From Ruditapes philippinarum (taxonomy: Eukaryota): 64,000 nucleotides of DNA. A program made the translations under genes and the position numbers. Every line of letters starts with the position of its first letter. Positions within the stretch are counted from its first letter, which is position 1. Below the pieces are notes generated by a model. That model saw only the letters and a list, made by a program, of their open reading frames with translations, searched no databases and was not told the origin of the DNA. Location of the stretch: contig NW_026866721.1 in the NCBI RefSeq assembly GCF_026571515.1, positions 248,001-312,000 of the forward strand, written 5' to 3'. Shown one piece after another: positions 1 to 24,934 of this stretch.

Positions 1-2951
1 GTGAAACAAATATTGACGACAAGGATAGTTGTGGCTATACCATCCTGCATCAGGAGAATGACAACACATTGCTGAGCAAAATACCAAAAGTTAGGAAGAA
101 CAACCATTGCCATGGATACATGAAAACATCAACGGTATACCTGATAATTGCTACAACAATAATCGTGTCTGCCATCGTCTCTTCTAGTAGTGGAATTTTG
201 GTTTATTTCGTGACAAAGGAGCGCATGGAATGCACTTGTAACATTCAAGGAATGAAATTCGGATCACCAGAGGTATCCCATACTATGACAAAAAGTGCAA
301 CAGTTGCATTGACTTCCGGTTTATCCGAAGCTATCTCTCTACCAAGTGAAATGTCAACGGATTCTACAACAATAACACCAAACTATTCGTCAACCGATCG
401 TGACATCTCTCTACCAAGTGAAATGACAACGGTGTCTACATTCGAGACGCCAAACAATTTGTCAACTGAACGCGACTCTCAAGGAGTAACGACAACAGCA
501 GCAACAACTCCTGAATATGAAGTTTCCGCATCAAATGTAGTTTGGAATTCGACAACCTCTACTATAAAAGGTTTACTTTTGTACAGAAATAAATATTGTC
601 GCTTTGAAAATTTTTTATTCTATGGAGCATGATTAAATCGTTGAATATTTAGAGATTGGTCTCATGTTGACTTTCAAAAGTTTTCTTTATTTTATCATGA
701 AACCTTTTTCTGCGCTTATTGAAATCAAAGCAACGTAGTGCATTGATTTTTTGGAATTAAACTAGTGCCGTGTTAACGTGATTGGCATAATCAGATAACT
801 ATAATATATCCTTGATTTTTACTTATCCTTGATTATTAAGTATCCTTGGTAACTTATTTCATTGGTTATACATGATTGATAATTGCATTTTCTTGATTAA
901 ACCTCCTTCATCATTACATATACATATAGATCGTTTTTCCGACTTTGTAAATAGTAGCGTAACCGCCATCTTCTAATCCTTGAATATAATAACTATATCC
1001 TAAGTTTTTAATATGTATATCCTTGATTATTATATATCCTTAAATATTTATACATGGTTGTTGCATATCTGATAATTACCTATAAAAGCCAATTCCATGA
1101 ACTCGACGTTTTACTGTAAGTTGTAGAATATGTCTTTGAAACTTTCAGGAAAACCATGTCCAGATGACTGGTTAAAAACTTCATCGTCTTGTTACTATTT
1201 TAGCACAGATTCTAAAAACTGGACGGATGCTTTGGTCAGTATTTGTGGTCTGACTTCATTATCAGCTTGATATTTTGCCAGTGTAATGTTTATTATGTAA
1301 TGATATTATATCGATATTAGAAATTGATGGCATATGATTATAAACAGGCCTTGTCATCCGCCCTTTTTAATTTAAAAAAGAGATAGGAAAGTCAAAATTA
1401 TTACACATATATTCACAGAACGCTTTAAATTATTGAATGTNNNNNNNNNNNNNNNNNNNNNNNNNNNNNNNNNNNNNNNNNNNNNNNNNNNNNNNNNNNN
1501 NNNNNNNNNNNNNNNNNNNNNNNNNNNNNNNNNNNNNNNNNNNNNNNNNNNNNNNNNNNNNNNNNNNNNNNNNNNNNNNNNNNNNNNNNNNNNNNNNNNN
1601 NNNNNNNNNNNNNNNNNNNNNNNNNNNNNNNNNNNNNNNNNNNNNNNNNNNNNNNNNNNNNNNNNNNNNNNNNNNNNNNNNNNNNNNNNGAACTCTTTAT
1701 CTCTTTTAGACAAAGACACATCGTTGAAAGATAAATGCAAAGCCGTGTTTTTATGATCACGTGTTATTTTTTCTACTCTTTTATTGTACTAGGAAGCCTG
1801 CAAAGCATTTGATAGTAAACTTGTTGAGATATCAGATATTGATGAAGACAATATAATGAGAACCAAGGCAAGGAACGTATATAGTGAGTAACAATTATTG
1901 CTCTCTTGGTCAATGAAAAAAAATAAAATAAATAAACATTGCAGACTAGGTTTGGTTAAGTCTGTCAATAAAGGACAATGCTATGCAACATCTCTCATGC
2001 CCTGTAGCACCGGCTGAAGCAGTATTCAATCTCTAACACTATAAAATATTTGGATCATTGGTCCTGAAGGACCGGGAAAAAAATAACAGCACTTTAACTG
2101 CATTTCACATTGACTGAAAAAGGGAACAATGCATGTACTATCAAAGCTAACTAGAGACGGAATTATACATATACGTTGTGTTTTGTCACAACGACAACTG
2201 ATTCGATTTCTGTTTAGATTAGTTACGATTATTTGTTTACAAAATGGATAAAACATAAACGCCGCATTTATATCGGGCATAGGTCTACTTATGCAATATC
2301 ATGATCATTTTAAAGATGAAGAATGATTGATCAATATTCAGTTTATAAACTCACATTTATAAGCATTGCGTTTTTTGACTATAATTTTAAGAATATAAAA
2401 ATACGAATATTGGTAATACAAATATTACTGTTCATGCGTAATACTCATTACCTGGAATTATATGAGCCGTGTCACGACAAAACCAACATAGTGGGTTTGC
2501 GACCAGCATGGATCCAGACCAGCCTGCGCATCCGCGCAGTCTGATCAGGATCCATGCTGTTCGCTATCAGTTTCTCCACTTGTAATAGAGTTGGTAAGCG
2601 AACAGCATGGATCCTGATCAGACTGCGCGGATGCGCAGGCTGGTCTGGATCCATGCTGGTCGCAAACGCACTATGTTGGTTTTGTCGTGACACGGCTCAT
2701 ATAACGTTTCAGGTAACTATTGGATCGGATTAACAGATCAAAGAGATGAAGGCGTGTGGATTTGGAGCGGGAGTAATACTCGGCTAACATCAGAAATGTA
2801 CACGAACTGGTCACCTGGGCAACCCGATGACGCCAGGGGGCGTGGTGAAGATTGTGCTTCTTTAGAAAAACGTTACTCATTTCGCTGGAATGACGAGGAA
2901 TGTTATATGAAATTAAGATACGTCTGTGAAATAAATTTGCCCAAGAGTTAA
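1..2951 (+). CDS. Type II transmembrane C-type lectin receptor (perlucin-like CTLD, QPD/WND type) with Ser/Thr-rich stalk; 5' end lies outside the window
   Basis: Exons <1-570, 1149-1234, 1793-1883, 2713-2951; GT-AG introns of phase 1, 0, 1. The frame is open from base 3 (ETNIDDKDSCGYTIL...). TM segment VYLIIATTIIVSAIVSSSSGILVYFV. CTLD: CPDDW...CYYFS...WTDALEAC...YWIGLTD...WSPGQPD...EDC...WNDEEC...YVCE. Confidence 0.9.
333..476 (+). repeat. 72-bp in-frame tandem duplication in the mucin-like stalk
   Basis: ISLPSEMSTDSTTITPNYSSTDRD (333-404) and ISLPSEMTTVSTFETPNNLSTERD (405-476). Confidence 0.85.
1441..1689. other. Assembly gap (N run)
   Basis: Run of N. Confidence 1.
2463..2699. mobile_element. 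~240-bp palindromic MITE (TGAGCCGCGTCACGACAAAACCAAC family), intronic
   Basis: Near-perfect fold-back with long TIRs and AT-rich flanks; nine copies in the window. Confidence 0.9.
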
Positions 2952-3032
2952 AGTGACCATAAGTTCATCCCAGGAATAGTGAGAAAGACAAAATGTCAAT
3001 AGCTATTCGGACCTTTGTGGAGCTTCTTTCTT

Positions 3033-3380
3033 TTAAAGCTGCACGCTTCCAGATTAGCCAAATTATCTTTAAAAATCTATCTAAGACTTTTAAAAAAAGT
3101 TTAAAAAATCTCCGACATTTAAGTACAATGTAATAATTTGAATTATGTGCGATTAAAGATCAATTGTGCAGTATTCATCATCATATTTCTACTGCGTAAC
3201 TAACGCAGTAAGGGCTATTTTTGCATATTTTGACCTCTTTTTGGTTATTTGCGTGGACTGTAAATGTCGTTTGCAATTTATTGATCATATACGTTGTTCT
3301 TTTGATAATATTTTTTACTTTTAAATAGACGTTAAAATGTTCAGGAACATCAGTATGAATCTGGAGGCGTGCTGCTTACT
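3033..3380. mobile_element. TTAA-flanked Kolobok-like MITE (AGCTGCACGC family)
   Basis: TTAAAGCTGCACGCTTCCAGATT...AATCTGGAGGCGTGCTGCTT; related copies near 31385 and 57220. Confidence 0.55.
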
Positions 3381-4926
3381 TGTTAATTAACTGCTATTTG
3401 AGCCTCATTGTACTTTTATTCATGTTTGTCACCTCATTGTGTCATGTTTGTACATGGAATACGAGAAATACATGTTTTCTGACTTGACCTGACTTGAATA
3501 ACAATCGATAACGATTTATATTAAGTAATGCCATTGAATCACAAGACTAAGTAAAAATAACATAAAATGACTATATTTTCAAAGCATACAGTAAATATGA
3601 TGTAAAGTAATATATTAATGTGGTGTTAATTCACATTGTTAAGTACAAATGTGAAATGTTGAATTCTTTGGACTGGTACACAGCTTATGGCATCTTTCTG
3701 TATCTTGCATTTTTATCCAAAATCTAAAATTACGAATACTCTCTTGGAGGACTCGCTCATAACGGCAACCGGTGGCGAGTAAAAATAAACTCAATTACAC
3801 ACACACATAGTCTTATATAGGCTTTGCAGTTGTGTAAGAGTCCAATAAAATCAGTATTGTACAAAGCAATGAATATTGATATCTTTATTGTACACCTTCA
3901 ACTTTTCGACAGAATTTAGTTACTGCGAATACAATTTGTAATTGGAAGTTTAAAAAATAAAAAAGGCTATAATGAGTACAATTGTGATTTTATACGAATT
4001 TTTTTGTCTGGCAAATGGAAACGAGGCTGAATTGCTAAAATTTGATTCATTTATGATTTATATTGAGAGATCACGTGGTCAAAACGCTGGAAGTTCATTT
4101 TTACATTTTATAAGGTGTGAATAAAAAAAACATTTTTTCTTGCGTATTTTTAATTCAATTGTAATACAATGATTTATTTCTACATGCATAATGCATTGCG
4201 TGTATACAAAAACACTCACTGTATTGTCAGAATTGCTTTTGTAATCAAAAAGCAAATTATTAACAACTACTACGTTCCAAATAAAATAGATTTATAGCGT
4301 GTACATATATATGTGAATAAAACATATACAAGTTATGATATCTACATGTCTATCATAACATTATAAAAGGCATCAGTATTTCGGAGTAATTCGGAATACA
4401 TCATTACCAAAGTAATTACAAAGAAAACGCAAAACCTATTGACAGCAAAATTAAACTGTTGATATTATGTGAAATATTTTTGCGTTTGAACATATTTACA
4501 TATTTGCATCAATCAATTTACAAAATGTTAATTGTATTTCTTCATTTTGTTCATCCTCAATTAGGAATGCATATATACATGTGCTTATTAATTATACATG
4601 AAATTACGACAGATCTTTAGCAGTGAACCCTTAATTTGGTGGCACCGGAAGTGTCTTGACTTGGCAAGTAATATAAATAGAGCAAGACATGTCCGTGCAG
4701 CGTAACCAGGCTCGTTATCGTTAGTACCTCAATTTTTAATATTTTGATATTAAAATTCATAAAATTTAAAAAAAACAGCTGATGCAAATACGAAGCTTGG
4801 CAAATGCATAAAACAAATTCAGTAGGATAAATAACGTGCATTGTTTTTTGACTTTGTGCGTTCAGCGTCTGAAAATAAATATACATGTTTTTATGACAAA
4901 AGAATATCGTCTGCTCCAAAAATATC

Positions 4927-7900
4927 TTATGCTGGGAACTGTGAAGCACTTGACTTTTCACACACGTACATTGCCGGATATTCACAACTTTGAGCATTCC
5001 AGGAAAATCCCAATGTTCCCGCCATGTAACCACACATTCCTTTCGTGGGTTTGCCGTCTGCCCAGTGAGTATAATGTGTGTCTTCTGTTTTCTCGTTCAT
5101 CCATTTCCACTGTCCTTCAAGCGTTACAAGCCCAATCCAGAAGTCACCTGCGTTTTAGTTTTAAGATTATTTTTTTAAATTTTTTTTTCAAGCAAATTTG
5201 AATGACAATTATATTAATCATGATTCGTGTTAAATTGAAAGAAAATATAAACTTTTGGTGCAAAAATTATCTTAATTTATGTTTTGGCTTTAAAGCTAAA
5301 TATTTGACATAAATGTTAATATACAAAACTGCGACCATTAATCTTTCTTAATAATTCACTGTTAATGAATAAAAAATATGTATAAAAATGTGCAAACCGT
5401 GCACTACTTTTTTAACTCATTACTCATTTGGTTTTAATCTTCAGCTCTTTAAAGATAATGAAGGGAAAAATATATAAAGCATGCATACCACCAGTGCAGC
5501 TATAAATTCCACAATGTTGCCATCTTATTTTCGGATCTGTTGTGTAGCACCAAGGAAACCCCTCACCGTCTGGATCACGACAATAATTAGAGGCATTGAC
5601 TAGAGTCTTGTCTGGGAATGTTTCCGCTTTGTTCCGCGTATGAATATGCGGCGTCTGTGAATCCCATCGTTGACACACGTGACCGTCATATGTCGTCTGC
5701 CGCACTCCATTATATTCACTTGACTTATTTTGATAACAATCTTAAACAAAAACATATACTCATATTACAATATTTTTCTAAATTCTATTTTGTTTTTAAC
5801 GTCTTTTTAAACAAGGGAAAAGACAAGGAGAAAGTTGTGGTTACTTTTCATCACGGATTTATATTACACATTTTGTGTCCATTTAGTTTATAAGTGTGAT
5901 ACGGTTTCGAACACACACAAAACAAACAAACAGGAAATTACAATTTTGAAAAATATAAATGGATAGTTGGATATCAAAGTTTAGTTCCTGAAATACATTA
6001 AAACAATTTTAACTTTGATTAATTTGTTTGCATCTGGATTTTTTAAATTTGAATTTATTTTAAAAACTTTTTTTCCCAATTGTTTCGTCATTTCTCGTTA
6101 ACTCAACATATAATAATGACCCGATTTTTGAACGTGTTTGACATATTGTCTCACAAACTCATCTTCTGCCTCTGATTTAATCCCGGCAAGATAACCCCCT
6201 TCATTTTGGCAACGAGTCTGAAAAGAATTTTAAGCTTTTTTTAACCGAAATTATGATGTTTGATTTGAGGGAAATGTCATTGTTCTTGATTTTAACTATT
6301 GAATGTATAAACTCGAAATTAATAAATGGATTACTTTAGATATGTTTTAACAATCCAATAATATTATGTTTTCGTGATACAAATGTACTAATAATAAATT
6401 CAGTCGAAATGCAGAGTAAAGGAATAAATAAATATGCAACCACATATTAGTATAAATATCATTGTCTATCATAGTTGCAAATAATGTCAAGAAGGTTTTA
6501 AGAAAAAGAGCGATAAAACAAGAGAAAAAGAAACAAAAAACAAATTAATCTGTCCCGGATTTTAAACGGATAAAGGGAAACAAACGTCTATCTCGTTTTT
6601 TTGTAATGTAACGTGTAATGTAATCTTGTAATCCATTTTGTAATGTATCTTGGTATCTTGTAATGTATATTGGTATCTTGTAATTAAACTTGTAATGTAT
6701 CTTCTAATGTATCTTACCAATGCAGTTAACCACGTGACAGATTCGTTACTGAACAAGTAGCACGAGTTGCCGTACTCTATCCAGTTACCATGACAACCTG
6801 TTATATATAGAACCAAATTCTGATACGATTCATAGTTTTATATTAATTAGAATTAAAACGACTTCTTTTTCCCTTTGACTTAAAAGAAACAGCAAATGGT
6901 AACAATGTATTGGAGCCGCGCCATTAACAAAACCAACATAGTGCGTTTGCGACCAGCATGGATCCAGACCAGCCTGCGCATCCGTGCAGTCTGATCAGGA
7001 TCCATGCTGTTCGCTTAATAACCCTATTACAAGTAAAGAGACTGATAGCGAACAGCATGGATCCTGTTCAGCCTGCGCGGATGCGCAGGCTGGTCTGGAT
7101 CCATGCTGGTTGCAAACGCACTATGTTGGTTTTGTCGTGACGCGGCTCATTTTTGTTAAGTTGCTTATCTGTTATTGTTAAATGTGTTTTTACTTCAAAG
7201 GCATACATGCATGTTCAAATTATCTACATGTACATGTCTGTAATACATTTAACTTAACCACATCAGACCAATCTTTTCGAAATCAAAATCACATATGCCT
7301 ACAACCTTGTATATTTAGTGACAATACTTTTAAAGAAGACCTTTTGATACTAATTTAAACTAAGCCTTGGAGGTAAAATGTCTTAACCACTGTTGTCCGT
7401 GTGCATGCTCAATCAAATCGAGCTTAAAACATTGCAGCATATTCAATTTTGCCATGTTGACACTCTGTAAGGTTTCCAGTTTTCCTTTTTTGCAGACAGC
7501 ACACAAGTAACAAAACAAACATCATGATAGTAAAGCAATCTTATCTTCTACTTTATATTTGTATCCCTCTTATACTTTGTTACTGCTCATATGTTTAAAC
7601 ATGTTTTCGTTTCTATAGCTTCGAATGCTTAAGGAAAGGACAGTTAATAATGTTGCTAGAACTTGTTGTTCAACCCTTTTACTCTTTGTTAAAATTGTTC
7701 TTATGTGAAAATAATGTTCTTAAATTGTATTCAAAGAGCAATAAAATATTATTAAACTAAAATAAACTTATATCTCCAAATCAATAATAAAAAATACCTT
7801 GGCTAACAATTGATATAGCATTGATCCCTTCGTCTGAGTTTTCCTTTTCAGCTGCCGCTTCGATTTCTGGACTTTGCACTTGTTTCTCGGAAATGGCAAA

Positions 7901-8170
7901 GTCTGATGGGAGGATCACTTTGCATTCCGTGTTTTTATTGGTCAGAAGAAACACAAGAACTCCGCATCCGATGCAACAAATTGCAGCAACGTTCAGGATA
8001 AAAAATATCATCAAACAAACTGACGATCTCTTCAGATACCGATCACCATGAACTTTTCTGGGTGTGTTTATGCCATTCCGCTTATGTGATTCAAGAATTG
8101 TATACACGTTTGGTGATGTTTGAGTTGTCGTGCTGAGATTGTCCAAATTATCAAAATCAGTTTCATCCAT
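4927..8170 (-). CDS. Type II transmembrane receptor with a C-type lectin domain split by an inserted kringle domain, 340 aa
   Basis: Exons 8170-7798, 6797-6718, 6217-6121, 5740-5489 (kringle), 5147-4927; 1023 nt with phases 1, 0, 1, 1. CTLD N-half: CHGNWIEYGNSCYLFS...WLTALTRCQNEGGYLAGIKSEAEDEFV. Kringle: CYQ...YNG...CQRWDSQTPH...NYCRDPDGEGFPWCYTTDPKIRWQHCGIYSC. CTLD C-half: FWIGL...WKW...YTHWADGKP...CGYM...WNAQSC...YVCEK. Confidence 0.85.
5489..5740 (-). CDS. Kringle-domain exon (252 nt, phase 1-1) of the above gene
   Basis: All six kringle Cys and the NYCR(D)PD and PWCYT signatures; acceptor tttaag, donor gtatgc. Confidence 0.92.
6912..7149. mobile_element. Palindromic MITE copy
   Basis: Same family as 2463-2699. 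Confidence 0.88.
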
Positions 8171-9092
8171 TTTGAATTTAATGTTGAAGTATTTTCACTC
8201 AATTTACATATAAAAACATGTTTACATGTTTACCTTAAATTACTAACAAAGTCTGAAAAGATTGATAGCTCGGTTTGTCGGTAAGCGATTATGTGCGGTT
8301 AAACTTTAACAATTTCACGATTAACATTCACTTAATTATACAAATTTGCATTATGTTATGACAAAAAGCCGTGCGAGATAAATATAAACAACAATAAACA
8401 AAATATAATAAGAAGTTTTAATGAATTTGCATATACATGTTGTATATTTTAAGATTAAAAGGTTAAGTAAACAACATAATTCTATTCTTTCCGGGAAATG
8501 ATAAGCTTGATTGCGTAGATGAAGTTAACACTAGGCTAGACGGAGTACAATATTGATTTAATATGGACTTTTTGGACTCGGAAAATAAATGAACAATATT
8601 AATTTGATATAGGTTTTTGGACTAGCAATAACAACGAGACTTGATTGATATGACTGGATCGAATATTGATTTTCATTGGGAGATATCATGGTGCAAACGC
8701 TGAAAATTCATTTGTTACATTTTTTTACGGTGTGATATAACTAAAGTTACACTTGTAGTCAAACAAATACAATATGAGTCCAACAACAACAACAACAAAT
8801 AACCAGTCAATATACACAGGTTAGTCTGGTTCCAAGCATCTATTATAAACATATAGTCAAAGGGCAGGTAATACAGACTATACAAAGGTTTATTTAAATA
8901 ATGTTTCTTTAAACTGGATATTTACTCAAAGAACAGATTGAAATCCAAGAAACTATAAAATCGGATGCATCCAAATTTAATACATGAACACAATACTTTT
9001 ATACAATACAATAAAGTTACCAACATAATAAGGCTGTCTACATGGTTTAATAAAATACATATGATGTATTACTAAAAAACTGTTACACTTTA

Positions 9093-9782: not shown

Positions 9783-10029
9783 TATATTTAAATCCGTTAA
9801 AAATATGAATTGGTATAGATTTTGTCGGTCGTCTTAAGAAGTTTGACTGTATATTTAAAAAAAAAGTTAAAATTTCGTTAAAAAGGAATTGGAATATATT
9901 TTGAAATATCAATTATCACCAATATTTCTCTTAAACTGACAATAAGTCTAGTCATAACTAAATGTATTAAAATGTATAAAAAAATGCAATATAATATTGA
10001 ATATATAACTAAAGTCACGTCAATTGTTT

Positions 10030-13000
10030 TCACAATGAAAAATGATCTTTTGTTCCTGTAATATTTTCTTTGAACTTTTGCCACCATGTCGATGGGTAAA
10101 CATAAGGTTTCATGAGGTATTTCTCCCGAGTGCCTTCCTCATACGGTCCCCAAGTGTCGTTTGGTTTTAGACTCGCTACAAAACGCTGAAAATAATAATC
10201 ATATACATGTATATATATCATAGCAAATATCTGATCAATTATAATTATATTCATTTTATATTTCCATATCAACAGAAAGGATAAAATTGCTATAATTTCC
10301 ACAATCTTTTGAGGTATATATAGGGAAAATTACACAAGCATGCATTTGCTTTTCTGAATGATTGTATGTGTAAATGTGTATTCATGACCCAACAGCTGTA
10401 AGACGTATAGAAATACAACCAATACCCATCCAATAAGAACGATACTGACCGTTCATATTTTCTTTCTTAAATTCTTCGCAGTATATTTTGTTAAGGAAAA
10501 TCTAAATAAAACTTTAAAAGTACTATTTCCATATGAATGAATTTGATATCTAAGTGTGTATGCATATGTATCTATATGCAAAGACTATATCCATATTTTG
10601 AAAAGTTATATAATTTACAAACTAATCAAATAAATAGGGTGAGAGAATAAAAAATCCTCAACTCGCTGAATTTCTTATATGGACTTTCCCAACTTTAACT
10701 TTTAGGACCGTTCATTATTAATTTTAGGGGTATCAAGTTAAAACTTGAACGCTTGTTATCCAACAGTAAAGAGCCTGATCTGATTTCACGAATGTGCGGG
10801 CTGGTCCAGCTCTATACTGGTGGCAAAGGCTAATCACTTTTCGGTTGCCGCAGGAAAATTATTGTTATTATTTTTTACAAAACTTATATAGCACCTTTTT
10901 CATATACACATTCAAATGCCCTTAAAGATCCAGTATGTTGTAATAAAGGATGTAACAACACTTAAGTGAAATTTTATATACATGTATGTGTATAATTATT
11001 GTTCTAATGCAATTTTTAACATCCAAGAATATGTTAAATATGTACTGCAAATGTTTAAACACATTATATGTAATCATTGAAATATATGCATTAATTTCTG
11101 TTCGAAAAATTTGGCTTAGACTTTATAGAAAATAAAATTCTAATTACCTCCCTTTATTTACATGAAATGTAAATTCGGTAATACCTTTACAAATAATGCT
11201 TTTTGGAACATACAGTATTGATAAATCTTCATTTGAGCATCATATTTATAAAACCATATAAAAAATTGACTTACAGGATCTTTAAATAACGAATGTTAAT
11301 AAAAAAGATTGAATGAAACTGTACCTGTAACAGTGAACCGTCTTGATTTATTACAGAAAATATTCCTATAGCTACCATTGCTGCAATAGGTAACATGCCG
11401 ACCATTATACCACAGACCAAGGCTCCTTTACTGTATTTATACCCGTCACCATACTCCGGAGCGGAATATTGCGTAAGCAAGGCGAAGAATGCAATCTGTA
11501 AGAGAGAATTACATTGTAATCATTTCTCCTTCTTATTCCTTTTTTTCTCAGAAATTGGTCAGAAATTAAAGTGTTCTTACAGAACCATTTTATATTGCAC
11601 ACAAGTGACGTTCATATTTTCACTGTTTTTCGTGTTCTTAATTAATCAAATGGAGTATCATGCGGGTAATTAAGTGCCCTCTATAGATGCCATAAGCCGA
11701 TCAATTCGAATTTGACGTCCTTCCACAAATTTCTTGACGAAACTGTTGTAAAACATACAATGACTGTTTTGTTAATCTTAAGAGATATCCATTGTTACGA
11801 CATATAAAGCTCCCACTGACTCCGGGGTATATGGTTTCCACCGAATTTAACTCTCCGGGAATATAACTTCCGCCGAGTTTAGCTTTTCGGTGAATATAGC
11901 TCTCGCCGAATATAGCTCACCGGCAGATTTATCTCTCCGGGACAAAAAGCTCCCGGGAAATATTGTTCTTGACAAACATAGCTTAAAAATATACAGCTAG
12001 CTTTCGGGCAAATATTGTTCCCACTGAATATAGCTCTCTCTTTGGGAATGTATAACATATCTGACGTCGAACATAGCTCTCAAGGATTCGCATGTTTGAT
12101 AAAGCTCCCGGAGAGCACAATATTTGTCAAGGAGCAATAGGCGCAGGCTCCCAAATGAGCTTTATATGTAAAAGCGCAAAGGATAAAGCTCCTTGTCAAA
12201 GCGCAATAATGCTGAAGAGAGCTGTGTGTGTGACGTCACAAATCCACAAATCCAGGGTGTCAATCATCATTCATTTGTTATTGTCATGATTTCAGTGCTC
12301 TCTCATGCCTTATTGACTTGATGAGGTGCATACATGCCACACTACAAAACACACTCACTTCAAGTTAATAAGATTGATCCTTGGTATGTATTTCATATAA
12401 TTTATCACAACACAAACAACAAATAAAATACTGGCTTAAAAAGGACTTTCTTACCGTAATAAATAAAGGAATTATGATGGTCCATAAAACGCGAAGCGCT
12501 ACAGAAACATTTCTCCCCGTCATAAAATATATATCCCGGGCAAACCTGTCAGTACCTGGAAAAAAAGAGTGTTTTGTATTATTTCAATACAATATGCAAT
12601 CGTGCAATAAAGTAATATTAAAGGCCCATTATGCCCCACAAATGTTTTCATTTTTTTCTCAAAATCTTTTATTTTTTTGTTTTCTTTTACAGTTTCCAAC
12701 AAGTTACTCAATTACCAGTTACCTTCTTCTGATGCTTTTTGGCAATAAGTATATTTCTAGTGAACGGAAGTCAATATACAATATATAATATTTTGTTTAC
12801 GTTTTGCTACATCTATGATATATTATTTTACATTTAGCGCTATTTTTTCAGGCAACATGCATCGAACATGCTCTAAAACCATTATTTAAACGTTTTAAAA
12901 CTCATGTTTGCCCTTTATTAAGAAGTAAATATTCATTCCTTACAATGTGCATTTAGATAAAATCCCAAGCGTACTGTTATGGCAAAAAATCTGTTAAATA

Positions 13001-16000
13001 TGACAACATTTCAGTTTGACTTTTCCTTTAGAAATGTTATTCTTTTAAGTAAGAGATTTTGACGTTGAACAGATCAGTTCAACTTAATATTTTATTTCTT
13101 ATCTAATGGATTTGCCCTGCTTTGAATTTGGAACAGTCCATTTAAAGTCACAGGGATTTCAAAAACAAAATACAAAACTGAGCTTCCAATTGTTTAGTGC
13201 CCGGTTCACTGTGTGTAGAAACCGTCTACTTCCTGTGATCGCAAAAGACGATACAAGTTGAAGTGTGTCAGCTCGCAATATATGATACAGTGATCGAAAA
13301 ACGGGGCTTGTAATTACAATACCCCATACACAGTGAATTGTATAGACTGGCAGAAAATGATACAATGATTTCGTTTTTACACTGTGCGAGTATATTGCAC
13401 GGATGCACATGTTAATGGCAAAGGCTAATCACTTTCGGTTCAATCAGCTTAAAGGAACTCCACTGAGGTCTAAAAACGTCAAATATCATTTTTACATAGA
13501 TCAGCTTGGGCACTTCAAACAGACCGATTTGCAAAAGATAATGAAGAAATAAACTCATAAATAAATTGAACATCGTGATACTGAGCCATTCTTAGCCAAA
13601 TTTAAGTGAAAGGCATTGCAACGCATTTTCATTTTTTGTCATTTTTCAAAAGTACAATAGTCAAACTGCCATTCTGGAAAAATGAAGTGAGCGAATGATC
13701 TGAAATTTTGCACACAAGTTACTGGTCAAGACATACATCAATTGGAACATAAATTTCGAAAATTTATTTCTTGTCCCCTCATGTTCAAAAACCTCAGCGG
13801 AGTCTCTTTAAACCATGGGCTTATCTTTTAATTTAAATGAAGAAAAAACAATCTATTTGCACATAAGGATACATAAATAAATAATCCATTTAAACAATAT
13901 GAGCCACGTCACGACAAAACCAACATAGTGCGTTTGCAACCAGCATGGATCCAGACCAGCCTGCGCATCCGCGCAGTCTGATCAGGATCCATGCTGTTCG
14001 CTTACAAACCCTATAACAAGTACAGAAACTGATAGCGAACAGCATGAATCTTGATCAGACTGCGCGGATGTAGGCTGTTCTGGATCCATGCTGGTCGCAA
14101 ACCCATTATGTTGGTTTTGTCATGGCACGGCTGATATAAAAGCTTACCATATATCCAACAGATTGATACACATTCAAACAGAGACCCAATTAATAAAGCA
14201 AAGGAGGAGAAATACCAGTCGGCTAATTGGAAAAGGTAAATTCCGCCCTGAAAAAATGAAAATTAAAAATTACGCTAAAAATAGAACTATATGTTAAATT
14301 AAACTGTTTAGAAGTCAAGTTTATTTTGATAAAGAGCATATGAACGTCCTAAATAAGTGAATCACGTGAACATTAATATTAACTGCATTCAGTCATGCAA
14401 AATCCTAAACAACTGTCATTCTACTCACTTTACTGTCAAATAACATAAAGACATACTTTTCTTGATCAATTATCAAAAGGAATGCAATAAATATCCCTTG
14501 TACTTTAAAATTTGTTATGTAAAGATTTATGTAAATTTTGTTTTAATTTTTAAGTAAATAAAACAGTTTTACTGCTACAAAAAAATAAAAATAAATAAAA
14601 AAAGGAAAAGAAGCTTCAAAATGATATTTGTTTACGAGACAACTAGAAAATCTTACATTCATTGAGAGCGGAAGTCCTGTGAGGAAGAAAAAGAATCCTG
14701 TAACTATGTTAACAAGAACGCGCCTCTTCAGTAACTGACGTGGAAATTGGTCAATAATGCCACTGGTAACCGTCTCTATCATTCCAAACTAAAACATATA
14801 TGAGCCGCGTCACGACAAAACCAACATAGTGTGTTTGCGACCAGCATGGATCCAGACCAGTCTGCGCATCCGCGCAGTCTGATCAGGATCCATGCTGTTC
14901 GCTTACCATCTCTATTACAAGTGGAGAAACTGACAGCGAACAGCATGGATCCTGATCAGACTGCGCGGATGCGCAAACGAACTATGTTGGTTTTGCCGTG
15001 ACGCGGCTCATATGTATGTTCACTTATGATATATTAACAGTGATTCAATTTTTTCATAATCAAAATATAATTTTGCATTTTTTATTAGCTCATAACAGTG
15101 AACGTTCGTCTGCTCGATTGTTACATGTAAACAGAAAGTTTGTCTTAAATATTGTCACGTTCGTCTGCTAGATTTGTCAGATATAAAAAGAAAGTTTGTC
15201 TTAAATAGTGGGAGGTCGTCTAAAGAATGCAATGTATAACTCAAGGTAGATTTGTGTAATTTAAAAGATGAATCGAATCATTTCATCCAAAAAAATCCAA
15301 TTGAAACGTTTCGGCCATTTCCGTCAGTCTTTGGATAAAGATAATAGCCGAAGACGTTCCGATTGCAAAAAAATCTCGTACTTGTGAGAAATCGTCGAGA
15401 ATTTTGTAAATATTAGAAATTTATAACGTATCTATAACATATGAAAAGAAATCATCTATAGAATTTAAAAGAAAGCAGTCTACATCTCTAAAAATATCAA
15501 AAGAATATGTGCGACATATTGGACATAAATGGAAAAAGTTATTGTAAATTCTTACAATGCTGTCAAAGACTACCGTGATCAGCATAAGGAAAAACAGTAC
15601 AGACCAAAGATGTGGTACAGGCATCATGCTAATTGCTGTTGGAAACACAACAAACGCCAAGCCGGGTCCTGTTGAAGAAATTAAACGTTGGTTTATACAG
15701 AATTTATTAAAGTTCGATTGTCAAGGCAGCTATAATCTTATAGACACACTTTCGAGTCCGTCCCTGGAACCAACCAGTACTGAGCATTGGGTGTAAAGTT
15801 TCTTGCTCATGGAAACAACGACTTGCCCCTGACGGGGTTTGAACATTGAAACCAAACGTTAATTTTGCAAGAATTACGTATAACATCATATGTATAGACA
15901 AGACACTTAGCCGCTTATATATTTACATAATAAAAAATCCATTCTTTAGAAAATGCGCTTCATAAAAATATCTACATAAGGCTTGTTCGTCTTCTTTTTC

Positions 16001-19000
16001 AATTTAATAAAACTCTACATCATAAGAATAACTGGATAAAATATGTATTGAAAGAAGCTTACTTTTAAGTCCGTGGATATCTTAATTTGAAGATGGTACT
16101 ATTGTTTTTTTATATAAATTTGGATGTAAAATTACATTTGTTAATAAATTCTTATTTCTGCAAAGACTTCATGGGTCATTTATGCGTGTTATTTATAAAC
16201 AACTCTAGTCGATTCAATGGTTACTCCTTCTTGATTCTTTGCAATCCTAATTTATTTTGTTGCCAATACCAAAGTTGTAATCATTTCCTTCTGATTTCTG
16301 GCACTACTTTTTACCACACATAGTCTCGTTACATCTGGTCATTTCAAATAGAATTCTATTTTGAAGATCCTGAATACATTGATGAATTGTATAAGTGCAA
16401 GCATACCCGATTGTTGTGCTATTTTAGCGACTGTCATGCCAGAAGACTTTGCCATAAATCCTAGTAAAGCAAATACAACCATGCCGTTGTAAAAGGATGT
16501 AAAACCAGCAAAGACTACACAAATGGTAGAGGACCTGTAAGGAGATTTATGACCTTTCAACACTTACACACATACCCCCGTGACCAAATGGTTAAAGACT
16601 CCTTGCCCTATAACAGAATCGGGTTCGAATCCCATTAGAGACACTGGTTTCTTTCATTTCGGGAATCTATAGGGTTAGCTGAGGGTACGGACGGTGGTTA
16701 TATTCAGGTGCCAACTCATGCTTGTAGAACATACCTAGATATCTCTATGAGTTTGTTGGAAGTTGTTGTTGTTGTTTTTGTTTTTTTTTGGTTTTATTTT
16801 GGCCTTTTTTAAACATTACAATTTGAAAAGCATGTAAGATTAAAAAGTTTTCGAAATAAACATGTTGATAGTTCTATTCAGAATTCTATATGAATGTATA
16901 AATGGACATACTATGTATACCTTTCATACTGTGTGTTTTGCCCAAGATTCGTACGAATTATAAAAACATGTTAAAAAGATCAAAAGGTTGAAGGATCATT
17001 AAGTAAAAACGACTATCTTTTAGAGTAAGTGTTGAGTGTTAAGAATTGGATTAATTATTAGAATAATCATAGTAAGAATTTATCATCATTATCATTCTTA
17101 AAAATTCACTTTCAAATCCCAATAGTATTTTTTATCTATTAAATGTCTCTAAAAATAGCAACATTCATTTATGAAAGTTAATGAGCTTAAATCATACAGC
17201 TTGGCATTACCAGAAAGATTTCTGATGGAATTTGTTGTAACTTGACATGGTGATTACTCCGCCCCAAGTCGGTCCTAATGAATAAAACACTTGTAGAGCC
17301 GCCTCTAACCATACCTTCAAAGAAATATTCAAATAAGTCAAGCATTTGACGTTAGTAAATAAGTTTAAAGGGACTCCACTGAGGCTTTTTTTGACATGAT
17401 GGGAATAGAAATAATTTTTCGAGATATATGTACTTTCTGAAGCCGGCCTTTTCAAATACTTTGTGTGCACAATTTGTTCAGTCCGTTTTAACAGAATACT
17501 TATATTGATTGTGAAAAAAAGAAATGATAAAATCAATGTGTTTAAATGCTTTAAACTAAAATAAGGCTTAGAATTGCATAAAAATACAGTATAAATGTAG
17601 TATTTAGAAATAATGATATAAACCTTCAGAATTTCATTGAATTCTGTAGTTAGTGTATAGTAATGGATAGGTTTACCTGTGTTGTGAGAAGTTTGGAAAA
17701 GTCAGGTTCCACAAATGTTTTGATACCATCAATAGCTCCATCAAGTGTTAGAGCCTTTATAAAAATTATCGTCAAAAATACGTAAGGAGCCGTAGCCGTA
17801 ACATAAACGACCTGAAATATAGAATATCATTTTTAATCAGTAGTATGGACGTTTTATTTAATTTTGTCACCAGTGCGCTTCCATACTGTGTTTCGCGTCG
17901 CACCAACACAGTAAAGGTCATATGATGACTTTTAACGGTGGAAGAAGACCTGTGGTGCCCCTCCGTGCATTATTTCAGGCATTAATTCAGGTAGGTACAA
18001 ACGAGGCCCTGAGTAAAACCACAGATGTTCTTTTAAGCTAGCTGGACAAGTTCCTCACATGAAAAAAATCCAAAGTCTCTGGTGGGATTCGAACCAACAG
18101 CGGTAAGGAGAAAATGGTTTGAAGCCAAATGGCCGAACTAGTATGTGAAAATTTTATATATACATGTATATATAACATATCTTGACAAATTGAAAACGAT
18201 GCTTTTACTTACCTTTCCAAGAGATTTAACACCTTTGATGACGGCCGCCACACAAAATAACCAAGCAAGGAATAGTCCGATCACAAGATGCAACTGTAAA
18301 CTTCCCATTTCCTCAAGACCACGTGACCGTCCAATTACATTATACCTAAATAGTGTAGGTATAAATACGGTCATGCCAATAAATCAATTATATGTAATTG
18401 TTGTTTTTTAACACACTCACGCACGCGCGCACAAACACACACGCAGACGCGCGTGCGTACACACATACGTCATATAGTTATCATTGTAAACAGTTGGGAT
18501 CCAAACGTTTATTATATGAAAAGTACTTGCAAAGAAAAAATATCATCATCATTGCCGATATAGGACTACCGCTTCAAGAATTAAAAAGACAATAAACGAT
18601 AAACTATAAAATTGCGGGAAATATTTTAAAACTATATACAGTACAGACTAAAAAGTTAATTGAAAATAATACACCATTTTATTCATAAATTTCAAAATTT
18701 TGCCAAATTAGGGACCATAGTAATTATGTGGTTACGGCAACAGTCTCAAACACGTAAGATATATGAAAGGGGTTGAGATAAACCCTTCATTAAACACTTT
18801 AAGTATTTTTTTTACAGTTTCACGTTTATCGGTAAATGTTGATTAAAAAATAAGTTCCAATGTAAAAAAAAGCTTTAAATCCGCGGTTTATGTCTAAATT
18901 TCTGGACTAGGGTGCGATCTATGTGTTTGTGTGTTGTTTTCGTGTGTGTGTGATTTTTGTTAATGCTGTTGTTGTTGTTTTAATTCTGTCATCATTATGG

Positions 19001-21992
19001 CGAATCATCTCGGCAAAAAACATTTATCCAAATACCATCAATAAAAATTTAAGGGTCGGGTAGGGCTTACTTGGGTGGAATGGGTGGTTTTTGATTGGCT
19101 AGGTTGCCCGAAACAAAGAAATAATTTGGGCCTAGGTAATGTTATTCCTTCCTGCTACATGTATCAGTTAAAAGTTTTAACATAAAGTTATATATACTCA
19201 CTCCCAAAATTCGTAGGCTGAGGAACTTGACATGGTCACCACTGATGTAATATTAGATGGCGAAAGTGGAGATGGATCGAACAACATACTGGCAGTCATA
19301 TTGTATACTTCCGCATGTGTGTAAATAGTTCCGTTAATGGACGAACTGTTTGTATGAACTGCATACGAGTCTGTAGATCTTCCAGAAACTAAGTCCGATA
19401 TTACTAAAATTAGAAAAATTACACCAATATACAAGGAATGCCGTCAAATAAAAAACATCTCTTACCAAAAGCGTTCATGCTTTTATACACATAACACGTT
19501 CAGCTCCAAATACTAGTTAGGATTATGTTCTACGAGAACGACTATGTGGTCATTTTGTCGTATTTTCGTGTTTTCATCTGACGCCACGCGGAGCCAAAAA
19601 AATTCGACATTTGTATTACACAGATCAGCCACCATTATTTACAGAACAAAAAAGGGGAAAACCCTATGAATTCTATTTACTTGAGTAAATTTTGAAAATA
19701 AGGTTGGTGCTAAGATATTATTTTTCAAAGTTCTGTTATAAGGCGATTTGACATGCATGTAAATAAATTAATGCATGCAATAAACAAATTAAAAAAAACG
19801 TGCGGTTCAGCATATGTAACATTTGAATAAAAAGAATAAATGGTAGCCCTTTTTTGTCAGTCGAAATAATGTATCAATTTGAAGCAATACCTGTGCAGTT
19901 GACCGTGTTCCATGAGTTATTACATGTAGTCCAAGGCAATGTGGGAAGGAAAGAACTGTACAAGAAGTATAGAACCCAGGCTAAAATACAGATTACGTAC
20001 CATAGCACCGTAAATGACAACATAACTTGTAAAATACCTATACCTGTAATCAAAAGAAAGTAATTGGTTACAGAAGATCGCATTATCTTACCATTGAAAA
20101 TGTGTCAGAGCCATATATGCACAGTACGTTAACTGGAGTACATGTATTACTTATTCATACTCCAATTGCCGCATCAAAATAGAGCAAGCTCATTGATAGG
20201 CTCTTTTTTCTAGAGTTTACTTACAAAATCAGATAGTCTCGTGTTTCGACGGTTATTCTTTTACTAAAATTTAGTGTATCTTTTATAAGAGTATTACGTG
20301 TTCAAAGGGAAATACACACGCATAAGTGTGGTCAAAATACATGTACCTATTGGAGTCTCTCAATGATGATTCTACTACACGGAAAAGTAACGGGGGAGTT
20401 AAAACAGAATAATTTCCATCCCTTTTATCTCAAGAGATTTTGTATATCAAACTACTTGGATCATGTGTCCATTGTAGAACAGACCCAACATCTCGGCACA
20501 TGACCAATGGTCTACAACGTGTGCTGTACAATGACTTTTTAATAAGAGTACAAAACAGTTTTACAAAATATACTTGCCCTTGAACAAGGAACAACAGTCA
20601 AAAGCCTGTCCGGCACTTTGCCCTGTAAACTGTCCAAGACAAACCTCCAAGTAGTACAAAGGTCCACCTGATGTTATTAGGAAGAAGAAGAACGGGATTA
20701 AAAAGGCACCTCCTCCGTTCCGGCTGTAGAAAATAAAAACATACACAACCTATATGTGTTTAATAGCTAAACATTGTCCTATAAAACAATGTAAAGCCTT
20801 GAGGAAAACCCTTATAAAATTCAAAGCAAAGGGTAATAATTTACAAAAAAATAGTGAAAACGCGGGGATCTCTTCGAGTGTCCTTACACCGATCGCTCGC
20901 CTCAAAAAGATAGAGTATAAGCAATTTCGGTTTGGCGTCAATCATCATATATATAGACGCATAGAAAGTATTACAGTAGCCAAATGGGGATAGGGGTGCT
21001 TTATTTTTTCATTATTTTTTCTAACTTTATCAACATTTGAGGGAAATGGGAGGAAATCACATTTATCACATTTGCTAGCTATAACCATTTCATATCAAAT
21101 TAGTTCTTGATACTTTTTTCGAAACATGTAACCTTTATTAATTATATTAATTATAAAATAATAACCTGAAATATACTGTTATTTCTGAAACATTTTAATG
21201 AACATATGCCTGGGTTCCAGTCTGTTGATTTTTTATGTGCCTCTATTTGGCAAAATGAATAAGCAAAAACCATCAATTTTTTTAGCCTGTAGTTTACCTT
21301 ATAACAACAGCAAGTAGGTTGGTTTAAAAATGCCTTTTAATAAAATGTTCATCGGTGTTGCCCAAATAGCAACATGAAAGTAATGCGTTTAGCAGTGACA
21401 AAAAAGTCACGTGATCATTATGCGCTATAATTTTATTTTCAATAAGAGGATAACCAGACACAAGAATAAAAATTGAGCCGCGTCACGACAAAACCAACAT
21501 AGTGGGTTTGCGACCAGAATGGATCCAGACAAGCTTGCGCATCCGCGCAGTCTGATCAGGATCCATGTTGTTCGCTATCAGTTTCTCTACTTGTAATAGG
21601 GTTTGTAAGCGAACAGCATGGATCTTGATCAGACTGCGCGGATGGGCAAGCTTGTCTGGATCCATTCTGGTCGCAAACCCACTATGTTGGTTTTGTCATG
21701 ACGCTGCTCAAATAACAACACCGTACCTGCAAATAATTGGAAACCTCCATACGCTTCCTATACCTATTGTATAACCCATAATCGCCAAAAAGAACTCCAT
21801 CTTGTTTGACCACACACCGCGGTCCTGCTCCAGGTCAACTTTCTCGGATGACAACCATCCCGTTTCACCCCCTTCTGTATCAGAACTTCCGTCATCCTCC
21901 TTAAAACCATTTTGTTTCTTCAGAAACAATTCTTTACTATCTATTTCCGTCAGACCATCGCCGTTTAATTGTTTAAGCTCTGTCGAATCCAT
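10030..21992 (-). CDS. SLC6 (neurotransmitter:sodium symporter family) transporter, glycine/amino-acid-transporter-like but atypical, 679 aa
   Basis: 14 coding exons: 21992-21727, 20723-20578, 20043-19891, 19403-19202, 18345-18213, 17811-17677, 17314-17211, 16534-16407, 15668-15556, 14788-14657, 14247-14148, 12555-12455, 11495-11325, 10185-10030 (2040 nt, phases consistent). Motifs [73 protein letters not shown]. Confidence 0.93.
11805..12200. repeat. Degenerate ~21-bp minisatellite in an SLC6 intron
   Basis: Repeated ATATAGCTCyCsCCGA-like units. Confidence 0.55.
12617..12918. mobile_element. Kolobok-like MITE copy (reverse orientation)
   Basis: Starts TTAAAGGCCCATTATGCC; homologous to 23795-24146. 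Confidence 0.6.
13449..13811. mobile_element. Kolobok-like MITE (AGGAACTCCACTGAGG family)
   Basis: TTAA|AGGAACTCCACTGAGG...CCTCAGCGGAGTCTCT|TTAA; relatives at 35104-35432 and ~17365. Confidence 0.7.
13900..14134. mobile_element. Palindromic MITE copy
   Basis: Same family as 2463-2699. Confidence 0.88.
14801..15010. mobile_element. Palindromic MITE copy (small internal deletion)
   Basis: Same family as 2463-2699. Confidence 0.88.
15730..15845 (-). mobile_element. tRNA-derived SINE fragment (CORE-like)
   Basis: Minus strand has a GTTCAAACCCC B-box followed by TTTCCATGAGCAAGAAACTTTAC...CTCAGTACTGGTTGGTTCCAGG; relative at ~23340-23490. Confidence 0.5.
16575..16725 (+). mobile_element. tRNA-derived SINE, 3' truncated
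   Basis: A/B boxes (TGACCAAATGG; GGGTTCGAATCCC); body matches 44916-45191. Confidence 0.65.
17880..18135 (-). mobile_element. tRNA-derived SINE
   Basis: Reverse-complement homolog of 44916-45191. Confidence 0.7.
21474..21710. mobile_element. Palindromic MITE copy
   Basis: Same family as 2463-2699. Confidence 0.88.
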
Positions 21993-24501: not shown

Positions 24502-24844
24502 TTAAAGGCACATCATGCCTTAAAAAAACGAGTAAGTTTCACATCTTTAAAAAGAGCAAACATAAGTTCATTACGTTTATATAATGGTTTTAGAGCATGT
24601 TAGATGCTTGTTACCTGAAGAAAGTAACGCTAAATGTGAAATGATTTGTCATGTAAGTAGCAAAATGTAAACAAAGTAGTATTTTGACTTTCATTCAAAA
24701 CGGAACAAAAGAAAGAGCTGTTTCAAGTACTTGGCCAATGAATAGCTCTTTGGAAACTACAAAAGTACGCCAAAACTAAAAAATAAACTTTTGAGATAAT
24801 TCATAAAAAATAGAAGCATTTTTAGGGGCATAATGGGCCTTTAA
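24502..24844. mobile_element. Kolobok-like MITE
   Basis: TTAA|AGGCACATCATGCC...GGCATAATGGGCCT|TTAA. Confidence 0.7.
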
Positions 24845-24934
24845 TAAATATTTTCTTATATTGGACAAGGACATATATAATATCCAATGTATCCTAAGGG
24901 TAATTCTGTTTGACATTATTCAAGTAGGAATATT

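What the first reader, a model, noticed from the sequence alone, without database searches (positions are those of the whole stretch)
4927..5740. Possible ligand switch: lectin Ca2+/sugar motifs lost, kringle lysine-binding residues retained
Seen: the split CTLD has GKPTKG and WNA where the paralog has QPD and WND, and its long loop is shorter. The kringle has D-G-E followed by PWCY and RW (CRDPDGEGFPWCYTTDPKIRW). Knowledge: plasminogen lysine-binding kringles use a D-x-D/E anionic centre with Trp, Tyr/Phe, Arg and Trp at these positions. Inference: recognition may have moved from carbohydrate to lysine-bearing ligands, such as C-terminal lysines of proteolysed proteins or microbial surface proteins, with the CTLD acting as a scaffold.
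Basis: partly seen in the sequence, partly recalled or inferred. Interest (0 to 1): 0.7.

Follow-up and report, generated by a model that had tools for sequence, protein, structure and literature searches.

The report
Clam lectin receptor with nested kringle
This Manila clam gene is spliced into a message for a predicted cell-surface receptor whose lectin-type domain has lost its usual calcium/sugar site and carries a whole kringle domain inserted inside it, and that kringle would likely bind lysine-bearing proteins weakly, which no one has tested yet.

Summary
The gene (minus strand, five exons, 340 aa, NCBI 'apolipoprotein(a)-like', Ruditapes philippinarum) encodes a predicted type II membrane protein. 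[quoted passage not shown] The CTLD keeps 1 of 5 calcium-site-2 ligands; its neighbour keeps 5. The kringle has all seven lysine-site positions, but Glu57 marks the weak class. The six-position set is uncommon in other clam kringles (7 of 99) and common in this family (8 of 14; Mercenaria too). A sister branch has both the lysine site and an EPS/WSD lectin site, so the order looks like 'kringle added, calcium site lost later', not a swap. Against a clean switch: four family kringles lost Glu57 as well, and a venerid KPD lectin binds sugar without calcium. Binding is untested. The scan found split CTLDs before on other DNA. The nested architecture is shown; the ligand hand-over is about even odds.

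The parts
7798..8170 (-). Exon 1: cytoplasmic tail with YTIL (Tyr23, 8104-8093), hydrophobic segment (residues 51-69, 8020-7964), short stalk with one Cys; ends in phase 1
   Evidence: exon 1-2 joint seen as loose ends at 6799 in runs X3 and X8; identical to P0001
6718..6797 (-). Exon 2: CTLD start (Cys126, Cys137, to helix 1), phase 1-0
6121..6217 (-). Exon 3: CTLD Cys154 to end of helix 2, phase 0-1, non-consensus GTCATT donor
   Evidence: (Lectin_C 11-38)
5489..5740 (-). Exon 4: one complete kringle, 252 nt, symmetric phase 1-1, inserted between CTLD helix 2 and the WIGL strand
5634..5636 (-). Kringle Arg35 (Arg219), second cationic position
   Evidence: aligns with Lys35 of plasminogen K4
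5562..5570 (-). Kringle Asp55-Gly56-Glu57 (241-243), anionic centre of the weak type
5520..5552 (-). Kringle Trp62, Tyr64, Arg71, Trp72 (247, 249, 256, 257): aromatic trough and cationic centre
4927..5147 (-). Exon 5: CTLD second half (WIGL to last strand, Cys306, Cys322, Cys330) and stop
   Evidence: (Lectin_C 41-107)
5044..5052 (-). KPT (300-302) in place of QPD/EPN, followed by a loop 5 residues shorter than in gene A
4993..5001 (-). WNA (317-319) in place of WND
4650..4926 (-). 3' untranslated region (covered by spliced contigs at least this far)
1..2951 (+). Gene A, kringle-less relative in tail-to-tail orientation: exons up to 570 (ATG 28 bases before the window), 1149-1234, 1793-1883, 2713-2951; same three CTLD intron positions and phases; QPD, Glu and WND kept
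   Evidence: its splicing was not tested by RNA

Best explanation
The gene is spliced into a message for a predicted type II membrane receptor whose CTLD lacks four of the five canonical calcium-site-2 ligands and has a kringle inserted inside it, and it likely binds lysine-bearing protein ligands weakly through that kringle while the refolded CTLD likely serves as the socket that displays it. Shown: gene structure, splicing, motif states, family. Inferred history: a symmetric phase 1-1 kringle exon with a full lysine site landed in the phase-1 intron between the second and third CTLD exons; the calcium site eroded afterwards in the Ruditapes/Mercenaria branch; the family then expanded, with kringle doubling in one gene and loss of Glu57 in a subgroup. 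Inferred action: Asp55/Glu57 hold the epsilon-amine, Trp62/Tyr64/Trp72 the chain, Arg71/Arg35 the carboxylate of a C-terminal lysine or a spatial mimic; single-site affinity would be low and would need avidity (clustering or a stalk-Cys dimer); the cytoplasmic YxxL motif would couple capture to uptake or signalling. The ligand is unknown.
For: Splicing: joints exon3-kringle and kringle-exon5 in 4 of 4 runs of 4 studies, one 1715-nt contig through all, no skipping joint listed; NCBI model identical to mine. Fold: AlphaFold2 pLDDT 83.8, pTM 0.74; halves superpose on intact CTLDs, Z 20.9, rmsd 1.6 A, 126 residues; the Atlas's own model also aligns residues 122-335 to CTLDs, TM 0.53-0.57 by query. 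Lysine site: all seven positions named for apo(a) KIV10 and K1 are matched. Six-position set in 8 of 14 family kringles of this genome (6 of the 10 whose CTLD context was confirmed) against 7 of 99 others, and in 11 of 12 kringles of family proteins. In 13 family kringles against 100 others: Asp55 1.00 vs 0.32, Glu57 0.77 vs 0.20, Arg35 0.85 vs 0.06, while position 56 between them varies (G, D, H, E, K). Calcium site: none of 10 family-type CTLD ends has W-x-D, 19 of 20 other top hits do. Order of events: kringle-bearing CTLD halves form one clade (97/91), with the EPS/WSD proteins P0014 and P0175 as sister to the rest (98/93). All 11 kringle exons checked are phase 1-1.
Against: No binding data. 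Glu57 kringles (apo(a) KIV5-8) bind lysine analogues more weakly, and baboon KIV10 is non-functional despite having the residues (PMC11555715 section 6). Four family kringles have Leu57 (one also Lys72) with open frames, so the family does not always need the site. Family members share descent, so the Fisher p (2.6e-5) is not a test of independent events, and several non-site columns are just as family-specific (Gln74, Gly77, Ile78 numbering). The set is present in 151 of 594 kringles of other animals' proteins (a set picked by likeness to the query). SPL-1/2 of a venerid clam have RPD/KPD and bind GlcNAc/GalNAc without calcium (PMC12842671). P0005 of Mercenaria, whose N-terminus is closest to this protein, carries an extra intact EPN/WVD CTLD. 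The good model used an alignment in which 14 intact CTLDs were laid across the kringle gap, which steers the halves together; with 9 family rows alone pLDDT was 40.9. The tree rests on 72 columns and a midpoint root; P0001 is a long branch.
Confidence: 0.5

Rival explanations
1. Dual recogniser: the CTLD still binds a glycan, lipid or protein without calcium through its remodelled long loop, and the kringle adds a second, weak lysine contact. Recognition was widened, not handed over.
For: Venerid SPL-1/2 (RPD/KPD) and several other bivalve lectins bind without calcium (PMC12842671 passages). The CTLD keeps all six Cys and its core and folds well in the model. The long-loop region differs strongly between family members, as a diversifying binding surface would. 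P0014/P0175 show that both sites coexisted.
Against: The SPL-2 site is not matched residue for residue: two places after the Asn stands Gln, not His, and the loop that carries Asp106 is shortened (my mapping from the numbers; Tyr66 not mapped; primary paper not held). A conserved fold is also expected of a pure scaffold.
Confidence: 0.27
2. The lysine-site residues are inherited from the donor kringle and kept for folding or by recent descent; the kringle binds a protein partner by another surface or acts as a spacer, and lysine binding is absent or irrelevant.
For: Leu57 subgroup with intact frames; presence of the residues is not sufficient in baboon KIV10; clam kringles outside the family with the same set exist (7 of 99, e.g. 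L015, L016) and could mark the donor; non-site columns are equally family-specific.
Against: Asp55, Glu57, Arg71 and mostly Arg35 persist between Ruditapes, Mercenaria and the distant P0014/P0175 branch while their neighbours vary; these are surface charges that most clam kringles lack.
Confidence: 0.15
3. Tetranectin-like self or family pairing: the calcium-free CTLD loop offers its own lysine (Lys303 in KPTK) to the kringle of another copy or paralogue, giving homophilic adhesion or auto-inhibition.
For: Tetranectin's CTLD binds plasminogen K4 through the lysine pocket and is calcium- and lysine-sensitive (PMC10770464 passage and reference titles). A Lys stands three residues before the Cys here and in P0005 and P0007.
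Against: That Lys is absent from most Ruditapes members and from P0014/P0175; the likeness to tetranectin's loop lysine is recalled, not tested.
Confidence: 0.05
4. A decaying duplicate: the motif loss reflects relaxed selection and the protein has no ligand.
For: Long branch (0.65); some family copies are frameshifted (L014, C815); intron 3 is partly retained.
Against: Open frame, all 12 ectodomain Cys kept, spliced in 4 studies, 3 of the 4 listed exon-5 variants checked are silent, counterpart in Mercenaria.
Confidence: 0.03

Closest known systems
Weak lysine-binding kringles: apo(a) KIV5-8 and plasminogen K2
   Same: Asp55-x-Glu57, Trp62, aromatic 64, Arg71, Trp72 (K2 alignment; KIV5-8 description in PMC11555715 section 6); here also Arg35.
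   Different: Single kringle nested in another domain of a predicted membrane protein; no protease, no tandem chain; binding unmeasured.
Plasminogen K1/K4 and apo(a) KIV10 (strong sites)
   Same: Six of seven positions matched.
   Different: Glu instead of Asp at 57.
Type II transmembrane C-type lectin(-like) receptors (ASGPR, MGL, Dectin-1, CD69 as fold matches)
   Same: N-terminal tail with YxxL, one membrane segment, stalk, C-terminal long-form CTLD; model matches ASGPR1 at Z 20.6, rmsd 1.6 A.
   Different: CTLD interrupted by an 84-residue kringle; calcium site 2 lost.
SPL-1/SPL-2 of Saxidomus purpuratus (PDB 6A7T, 6A7S)
   Same: Venerid CTLD with Lys/Arg-Pro in place of EPN/QPD; Z 19.3, rmsd 1.8 A.
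   Different: SPLs are soluble dimers, keep WND and use Tyr66/Asp106/Asn118/His120; those are not matched here by my mapping.
Tetranectin (CLEC3B) with plasminogen K4
   Same: A CTLD and a lysine-binding kringle as a working pair.
   Different: There they are two proteins; here one chain, and no contact is shown.
Flatworm Tmed-krg1 (PMC9229212)
   Same: Invertebrate membrane protein whose kringles are proposed to grip lysine-rich protein (passages).
   Different: Six tandem kringles, no CTLD; lysine binding there is also a hypothesis.
NCBI label 'apolipoprotein(a)-like' / 'plasminogen-like'
   Same: Has a kringle.
   Different: Automatic label; architecture unrelated.

Membership tests
Kringle domain (PF00051) | Six Cys and profile score over the curated cut-off | tested here: met
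   82.8 bits vs 34.3, model 1-79 of 79; six Cys align with plasminogen kringles
Lysine-binding kringle, strong class (K1, K4, KIV10) | Asp55 and Asp57 | tested here: not met
   Asp55, Glu57
Lysine-binding kringle, weak class (K2, KIV5-8) | Asp55 and Glu57 with K4-type loop spacing | tested here: met
   aligned without gaps to K2 and K4 over the loop; class described
Lysine-binding kringle | Aromatic trough Trp62, Phe/Tyr64, Trp/Tyr72 | tested here: met
Lysine-binding kringle | Cationic centre Arg71 and Arg/Lys35 | tested here: met
Lysine-binding kringle | Measured binding of lysine or its analogues | not testable with these tools
   needs protein; residues alone are not sufficient (baboon KIV10)
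C-type lectin-like domain (PF00059) | CTLD fold, WIGL core, conserved Cys pairs | tested here: met
   Pfam 54.4 bits in two stretches; model Z 20.9, rmsd 1.6 A over 126 residues, with the alignment caveat; six Cys present
Calcium-dependent carbohydrate-recognition domain | EPN/QPD, the acidic residue before the Cys, and WND (five site-2 ligands) | tested here: not met
   KPT, loop deletion, WNA: only Asn318 kept; gene A keeps all five
SPL-type calcium-independent lectin | Tyr66, Asp106, Asn118, His120 site | tested here: inconclusive
   Asn equivalent present, His equivalent is Gln, Asp loop shortened, Tyr not mapped; numbers from a review, primary paper not held
Type II transmembrane CTLD receptor | No signal peptide, one N-proximal membrane segment, C-terminal CTLD | tested here: met
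   hydropathy 2.69 over residues 51-69, basic residues before it; topology is a prediction
Type II transmembrane CTLD receptor | Surface display and use of the YxxL motif | not testable with these tools
   motif present in 8 of 11 N-termini examined
Apolipoprotein(a)/plasminogen family | Secreted tandem kringles followed by a trypsin-like domain | tested here: not met
   Pfam finds only Kringle and Lectin_C; 340 aa with a membrane segment

The most novel reading that the evidence does not exclude
Venerid clams have built a receptor family in which a C-type lectin domain became a display socket for a plasminogen-type lysine site: a kringle exon was plugged into the lectin's helix-2 loop, the sugar site was then given up, and the cell now reads C-terminal lysines on cleaved or microbial proteins directly, without plasminogen. 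Extant members preserve each step (both sites; lysine site only; doubled kringle; neither), and the same loop was used independently in at least one other lineage.
Probability: 0.3. Interest if true: 0.72.

Novelty: new variant of a known kind. Interest (0 to 1): 0.5.

Why it matters
If the kringle binds lysine, this is a membrane receptor for lysine-bearing protein ends in an animal without a known plasminogen system, and a natural series in which a lectin hands recognition to an inserted module step by step; one lysine-Sepharose experiment with two point mutants decides it. Independently of ligand, it shows that the loop after CTLD helix 2 tolerates one or two whole kringles, which matters for annotation (these genes are filed as plasminogen-like or apo(a)-like and their CTLD scores as fragments) and for protein design.

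Tried and rejected
Raw RNA reads of four 2026 runs (4-12% of each read) on 1-8500 were swamped by repeats at about 2460-2700 and 6920-7380; exon depth was about 0-2 and no exon joint was among those shown: uninformative. No listed holder was on record as RNA; the four laid are 'RNA?' guesses, taken as cDNA only because their contigs skip the introns at GT-AG. Kringle skipping would keep the frame but no such joint was listed; contigs drop rare forms, so absence is not shown. First AlphaFold2 run with 9 rows failed (pLDDT 40.9). Mixing 55 kringle-only rows with CTLD rows misaligned them; 12 were used. Homodimer prediction gave no answer (score 0.01). The idea that the NCBI name means a plasminogen relative was rejected. 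The idea that PWCY/RW are special was rejected. Contigs C10790, C3010 and C6030 hold family-like kringles but no CTLD exon was found in the stretches fetched. Paper searches: kringle + C-type lectin + bivalve gave 5 papers, kringle + Ruditapes 2, and three searches gave none; no description of this architecture was seen; 'kringle' does not occur in the main text of PMC12842671, PMC10140915 or PMC13114784 nor in the supplements held for the last two. PMC12321717 lists a kringle among the domains of 13 RpMR genes; 7 of its 11 supplements are pictures and could not be read, so one of those genes may be a family member. Subscription papers and bioRxiv supplements were not searchable. No kringle chain appeared in the shown fold-search rows because CTLDs filled the lists; the kringle was not folded alone.

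Full report
What is there. The finding covers the last two exons of a five-exon gene on the minus strand: 8170-7798, 6797-6718, 6217-6121, 5740-5489 and 5147-4927, all with AG/GT ends, giving 340 residues without internal stop. The same 340 residues are on record as XP_060576104.1, 'apolipoprotein(a)-like', Ruditapes philippinarum. Exon 1 gives a tail with YTIL, a hydrophobic segment (51-69) preceded by basic residues, and a stalk with one Cys. Exons 2, 3 and 5 are the three parts of one C-type lectin-like domain (Lectin_C positions 11-38 and 41-107). Exon 4 is a whole kringle (82.8 bits), 252 nt, phase 1 at both ends, sitting in the phase-1 intron that gene A has at the same place without a kringle.

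It is spliced that way. Logan contigs of four runs from four studies (labelled 'RNA?') all join 6121 to 5740 and 5489 to 5147, all join exons 2 and 3, and two show the exon 1 end as a loose end; one 1715-nt contig runs through all of them; no joint skipping the kringle is listed. Contigs lose rare forms. Raw reads of four other runs were uninformative. Intron 3 is covered at depth 14-20 against 47-58 for the spliced joint in two runs; read-through would stop seven codons later.

It folds that way in prediction. With 66 aligned rows AlphaFold2 gave pLDDT 83.8 and pTM 0.74, and the two halves superposed on intact CTLDs over 126 residues (Z 20.9, rmsd 1.6 A). The alignment laid 14 intact CTLDs across the kringle gap, which favours this result; 9 family rows alone gave pLDDT 40.9. 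The Atlas's separate model also matches CTLDs over residues 122-335 at TM 0.53-0.57 by query.

The lectin site. Against gene A, Gln becomes Lys300, Asp becomes Thr302, the Glu before the Cys is lost in a five-residue deletion, Asn318 stays and Asp becomes Ala319: one of five site-2 ligands (the five-ligand scheme is established knowledge). This is family-wide: of the 30 best genomic matches to exon 5, the 10 of family type have no W-x-D, while 19 of the other 20 do, and none of those 20 showed a kringle within about 1.5 kb. Gene A ranks 41st of 59 in that search and lies outside the kringle clade, but shares the membrane exon with the family (E 2e-10 to P0005) and the N-terminal pattern, so it is a fair but distant comparator.

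The kringle site. Aligned to human plasminogen, the kringle has Arg35, Asp55, Glu57, Trp62, Tyr64, Arg71, Trp72: all seven positions named for apo(a) KIV10 (PMC11555715, section 6 read) and the four charged ones named for K1 (PMC9736318, passages). Glu57 is the state of K2 and of apo(a) KIV5-8, which that review calls weaker; it also notes a baboon kringle that is non-functional with all residues present. As a background I fetched stretches for part of the 150 scored genomic kringle matches (330 candidates) and recovered 115 distinct kringles. The six-position set occurs in 8 of 14 parsed family kringles (15 assigned, 1 frameshifted and unparsed; 6 of the 10 with confirmed CTLD context) and in 7 of 99 parsed others (100, 1 unparsed); with position 35, 6 of 14 and 5 of 99. 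Trough (58 of 99) and Arg71 (54 of 99) are common, so the second acid and Arg35 carry the signal. In 150 other proteins picked by likeness, 151 of 594 parsed kringles (619 found) have the set. Column by column, 13 family against 100 other kringles, Asp55 is 1.00 vs 0.32, Glu57 0.77 vs 0.20, Arg35 0.85 vs 0.06, but a few non-site columns behave alike, and kin are not independent.

The family and the order of events. Eight more loci in this genome show CTLD exon, kringle, CTLD exon in order, one with two kringles (8 of 12 regions fetched), a further one has a frameshifted kringle, and all 11 kringle exons checked are phase 1-1. Three Mercenaria mercenaria proteins and an unnamed branch (P0014, P0175 and seven cluster members) share the layout. 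No named protein outside these two venerids with this layout was among the rows shown (24, best 150 of 7884, best 120 of 356); multi-kringle proteins crowd those lists, so the range is not settled. P0014 and P0175 have the full lysine set and also EPS, Glu and WSD; EPD/WSD scallop lectins are calcium-dependent (PMC12842671 table passage). They are sister to all members that lost the site (97/91 for the clade, 98/93 for the rest; 72 columns, midpoint root). The simplest reading is insertion first, loss of the calcium site second, and in four Ruditapes kringles loss of Glu57 third. An unnamed protein, P0129, has three shorter kringles between a weak CTLD first-half match (E 0.001; 1 of 5000 shuffles) and a CTLD second half, and falls elsewhere in the tree: probably a separate insertion into the same loop. 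Earlier notes of this scan report a CTLD split by a 666-residue insert in another genome and CTLDs with an inserted WSC domain in this one; I did not check them.

How it most likely works. I commit at 0.5 to a surface receptor that grips lysine-bearing protein ligands weakly through the kringle, with avidity, the CTLD displaying it and the YxxL tail (8 of 11 N-termini examined) coupling to uptake or signalling. Shown: structure of the gene, splicing, residue states, family. Predicted: fold and topology. Inferred: binding, avidity, signalling, order of events. The chief rival (0.27) is that the CTLD still binds something without calcium, as the venerid SPL-1/2 do with RPD/KPD (review passages), though their site is not matched by my mapping. 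Smaller rivals: inherited but unused residues (0.15), tetranectin-like self-pairing (0.05; PMC10770464 passages), decay (0.03).

Novelty. Both domains are well known, and an invertebrate membrane kringle protein has been proposed to grip lysine-rich protein (PMC9229212, passages). I saw no description of a kringle nested in a CTLD in ten library searches (listings only) or in term look-ups of PMC12842671, PMC10140915, PMC13114784 and PMC6337849. PMC12321717 names a kringle among the domains of 13 clam 'mannose receptor' genes, with the figure in an unreadable supplement. The proteins are in NCBI under automatic names. Verdict: observation confirmed, interpretation partly supported, new variant of a known kind, interest 0.5.

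Noticed in passing
window 5741-6120 (intron 3 of gene B): Partly retained in transcript contigs (depth 14-20 vs 47-58 spliced in X1, X3); weak GTCATT donor; read-through stops after 7 codons, which would give a membrane protein with half a CTLD.
   Followed up: partly
P0129 (unnamed JGI/IMG protein, 535 aa): Three short kringles apparently inserted at the same CTLD loop, followed by a second intact CTLD; probably an independent insertion.
   Followed up: partly
G000:C10961:219971-221421 (L031/L032; P0002, P0168): Family member with two tandem kringle exons inside the CTLD; NCBI lists isoforms with two and with one kringle.
   Followed up: partly
L007, L008, L010, L011: Subgroup with Asp-x-Leu at kringle 55-57 and fully remodelled CTLD long loops: neither canonical site; natural negative controls.
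   Followed up: partly
P0005 (Mercenaria): N-terminus closest to gene B, but with an extra intact EPN/WVD CTLD before the split one; could be real or a fused model.
   Followed up: no
window 1-570 (gene A exon 1): Acidic stretch then GYTIL in the tail, recalling a hemITAM (recalled likeness), and a Ser/Thr-rich stalk with a duplicated SLPSEM-TDST-type segment.
   Followed up: no
window about 2460-2700, 6920-7150, 13850-14120: Copies of a short palindromic repeat element in introns, very abundant in RNA reads; likely a MITE.
   Followed up: no
window about 10000-22000, minus strand: Multi-exon sodium:neurotransmitter symporter (SNF, PF00209) gene; 8 exon frames matched.
   Followed up: no
window 24834-27406, plus strand: Reverse transcriptase (RVT_1) split over two frames: a broken retroelement.
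   Followed up: no
window 44707-46001, minus strand: Exons with a metallo-beta-lactamase-fold match (Lactamase_B_2).
   Followed up: no
window 5005: Variant seen in contigs of X1 and X3 changes Phe315 to Leu just before WNA; three other exon-5 variants checked are silent.
   Followed up: yes
L015, L016, L061, L022, L051: Non-family clam kringles that also carry the full lysine-site set; L015/L016 are the nearest and may mark the donor lineage.
   Followed up: no
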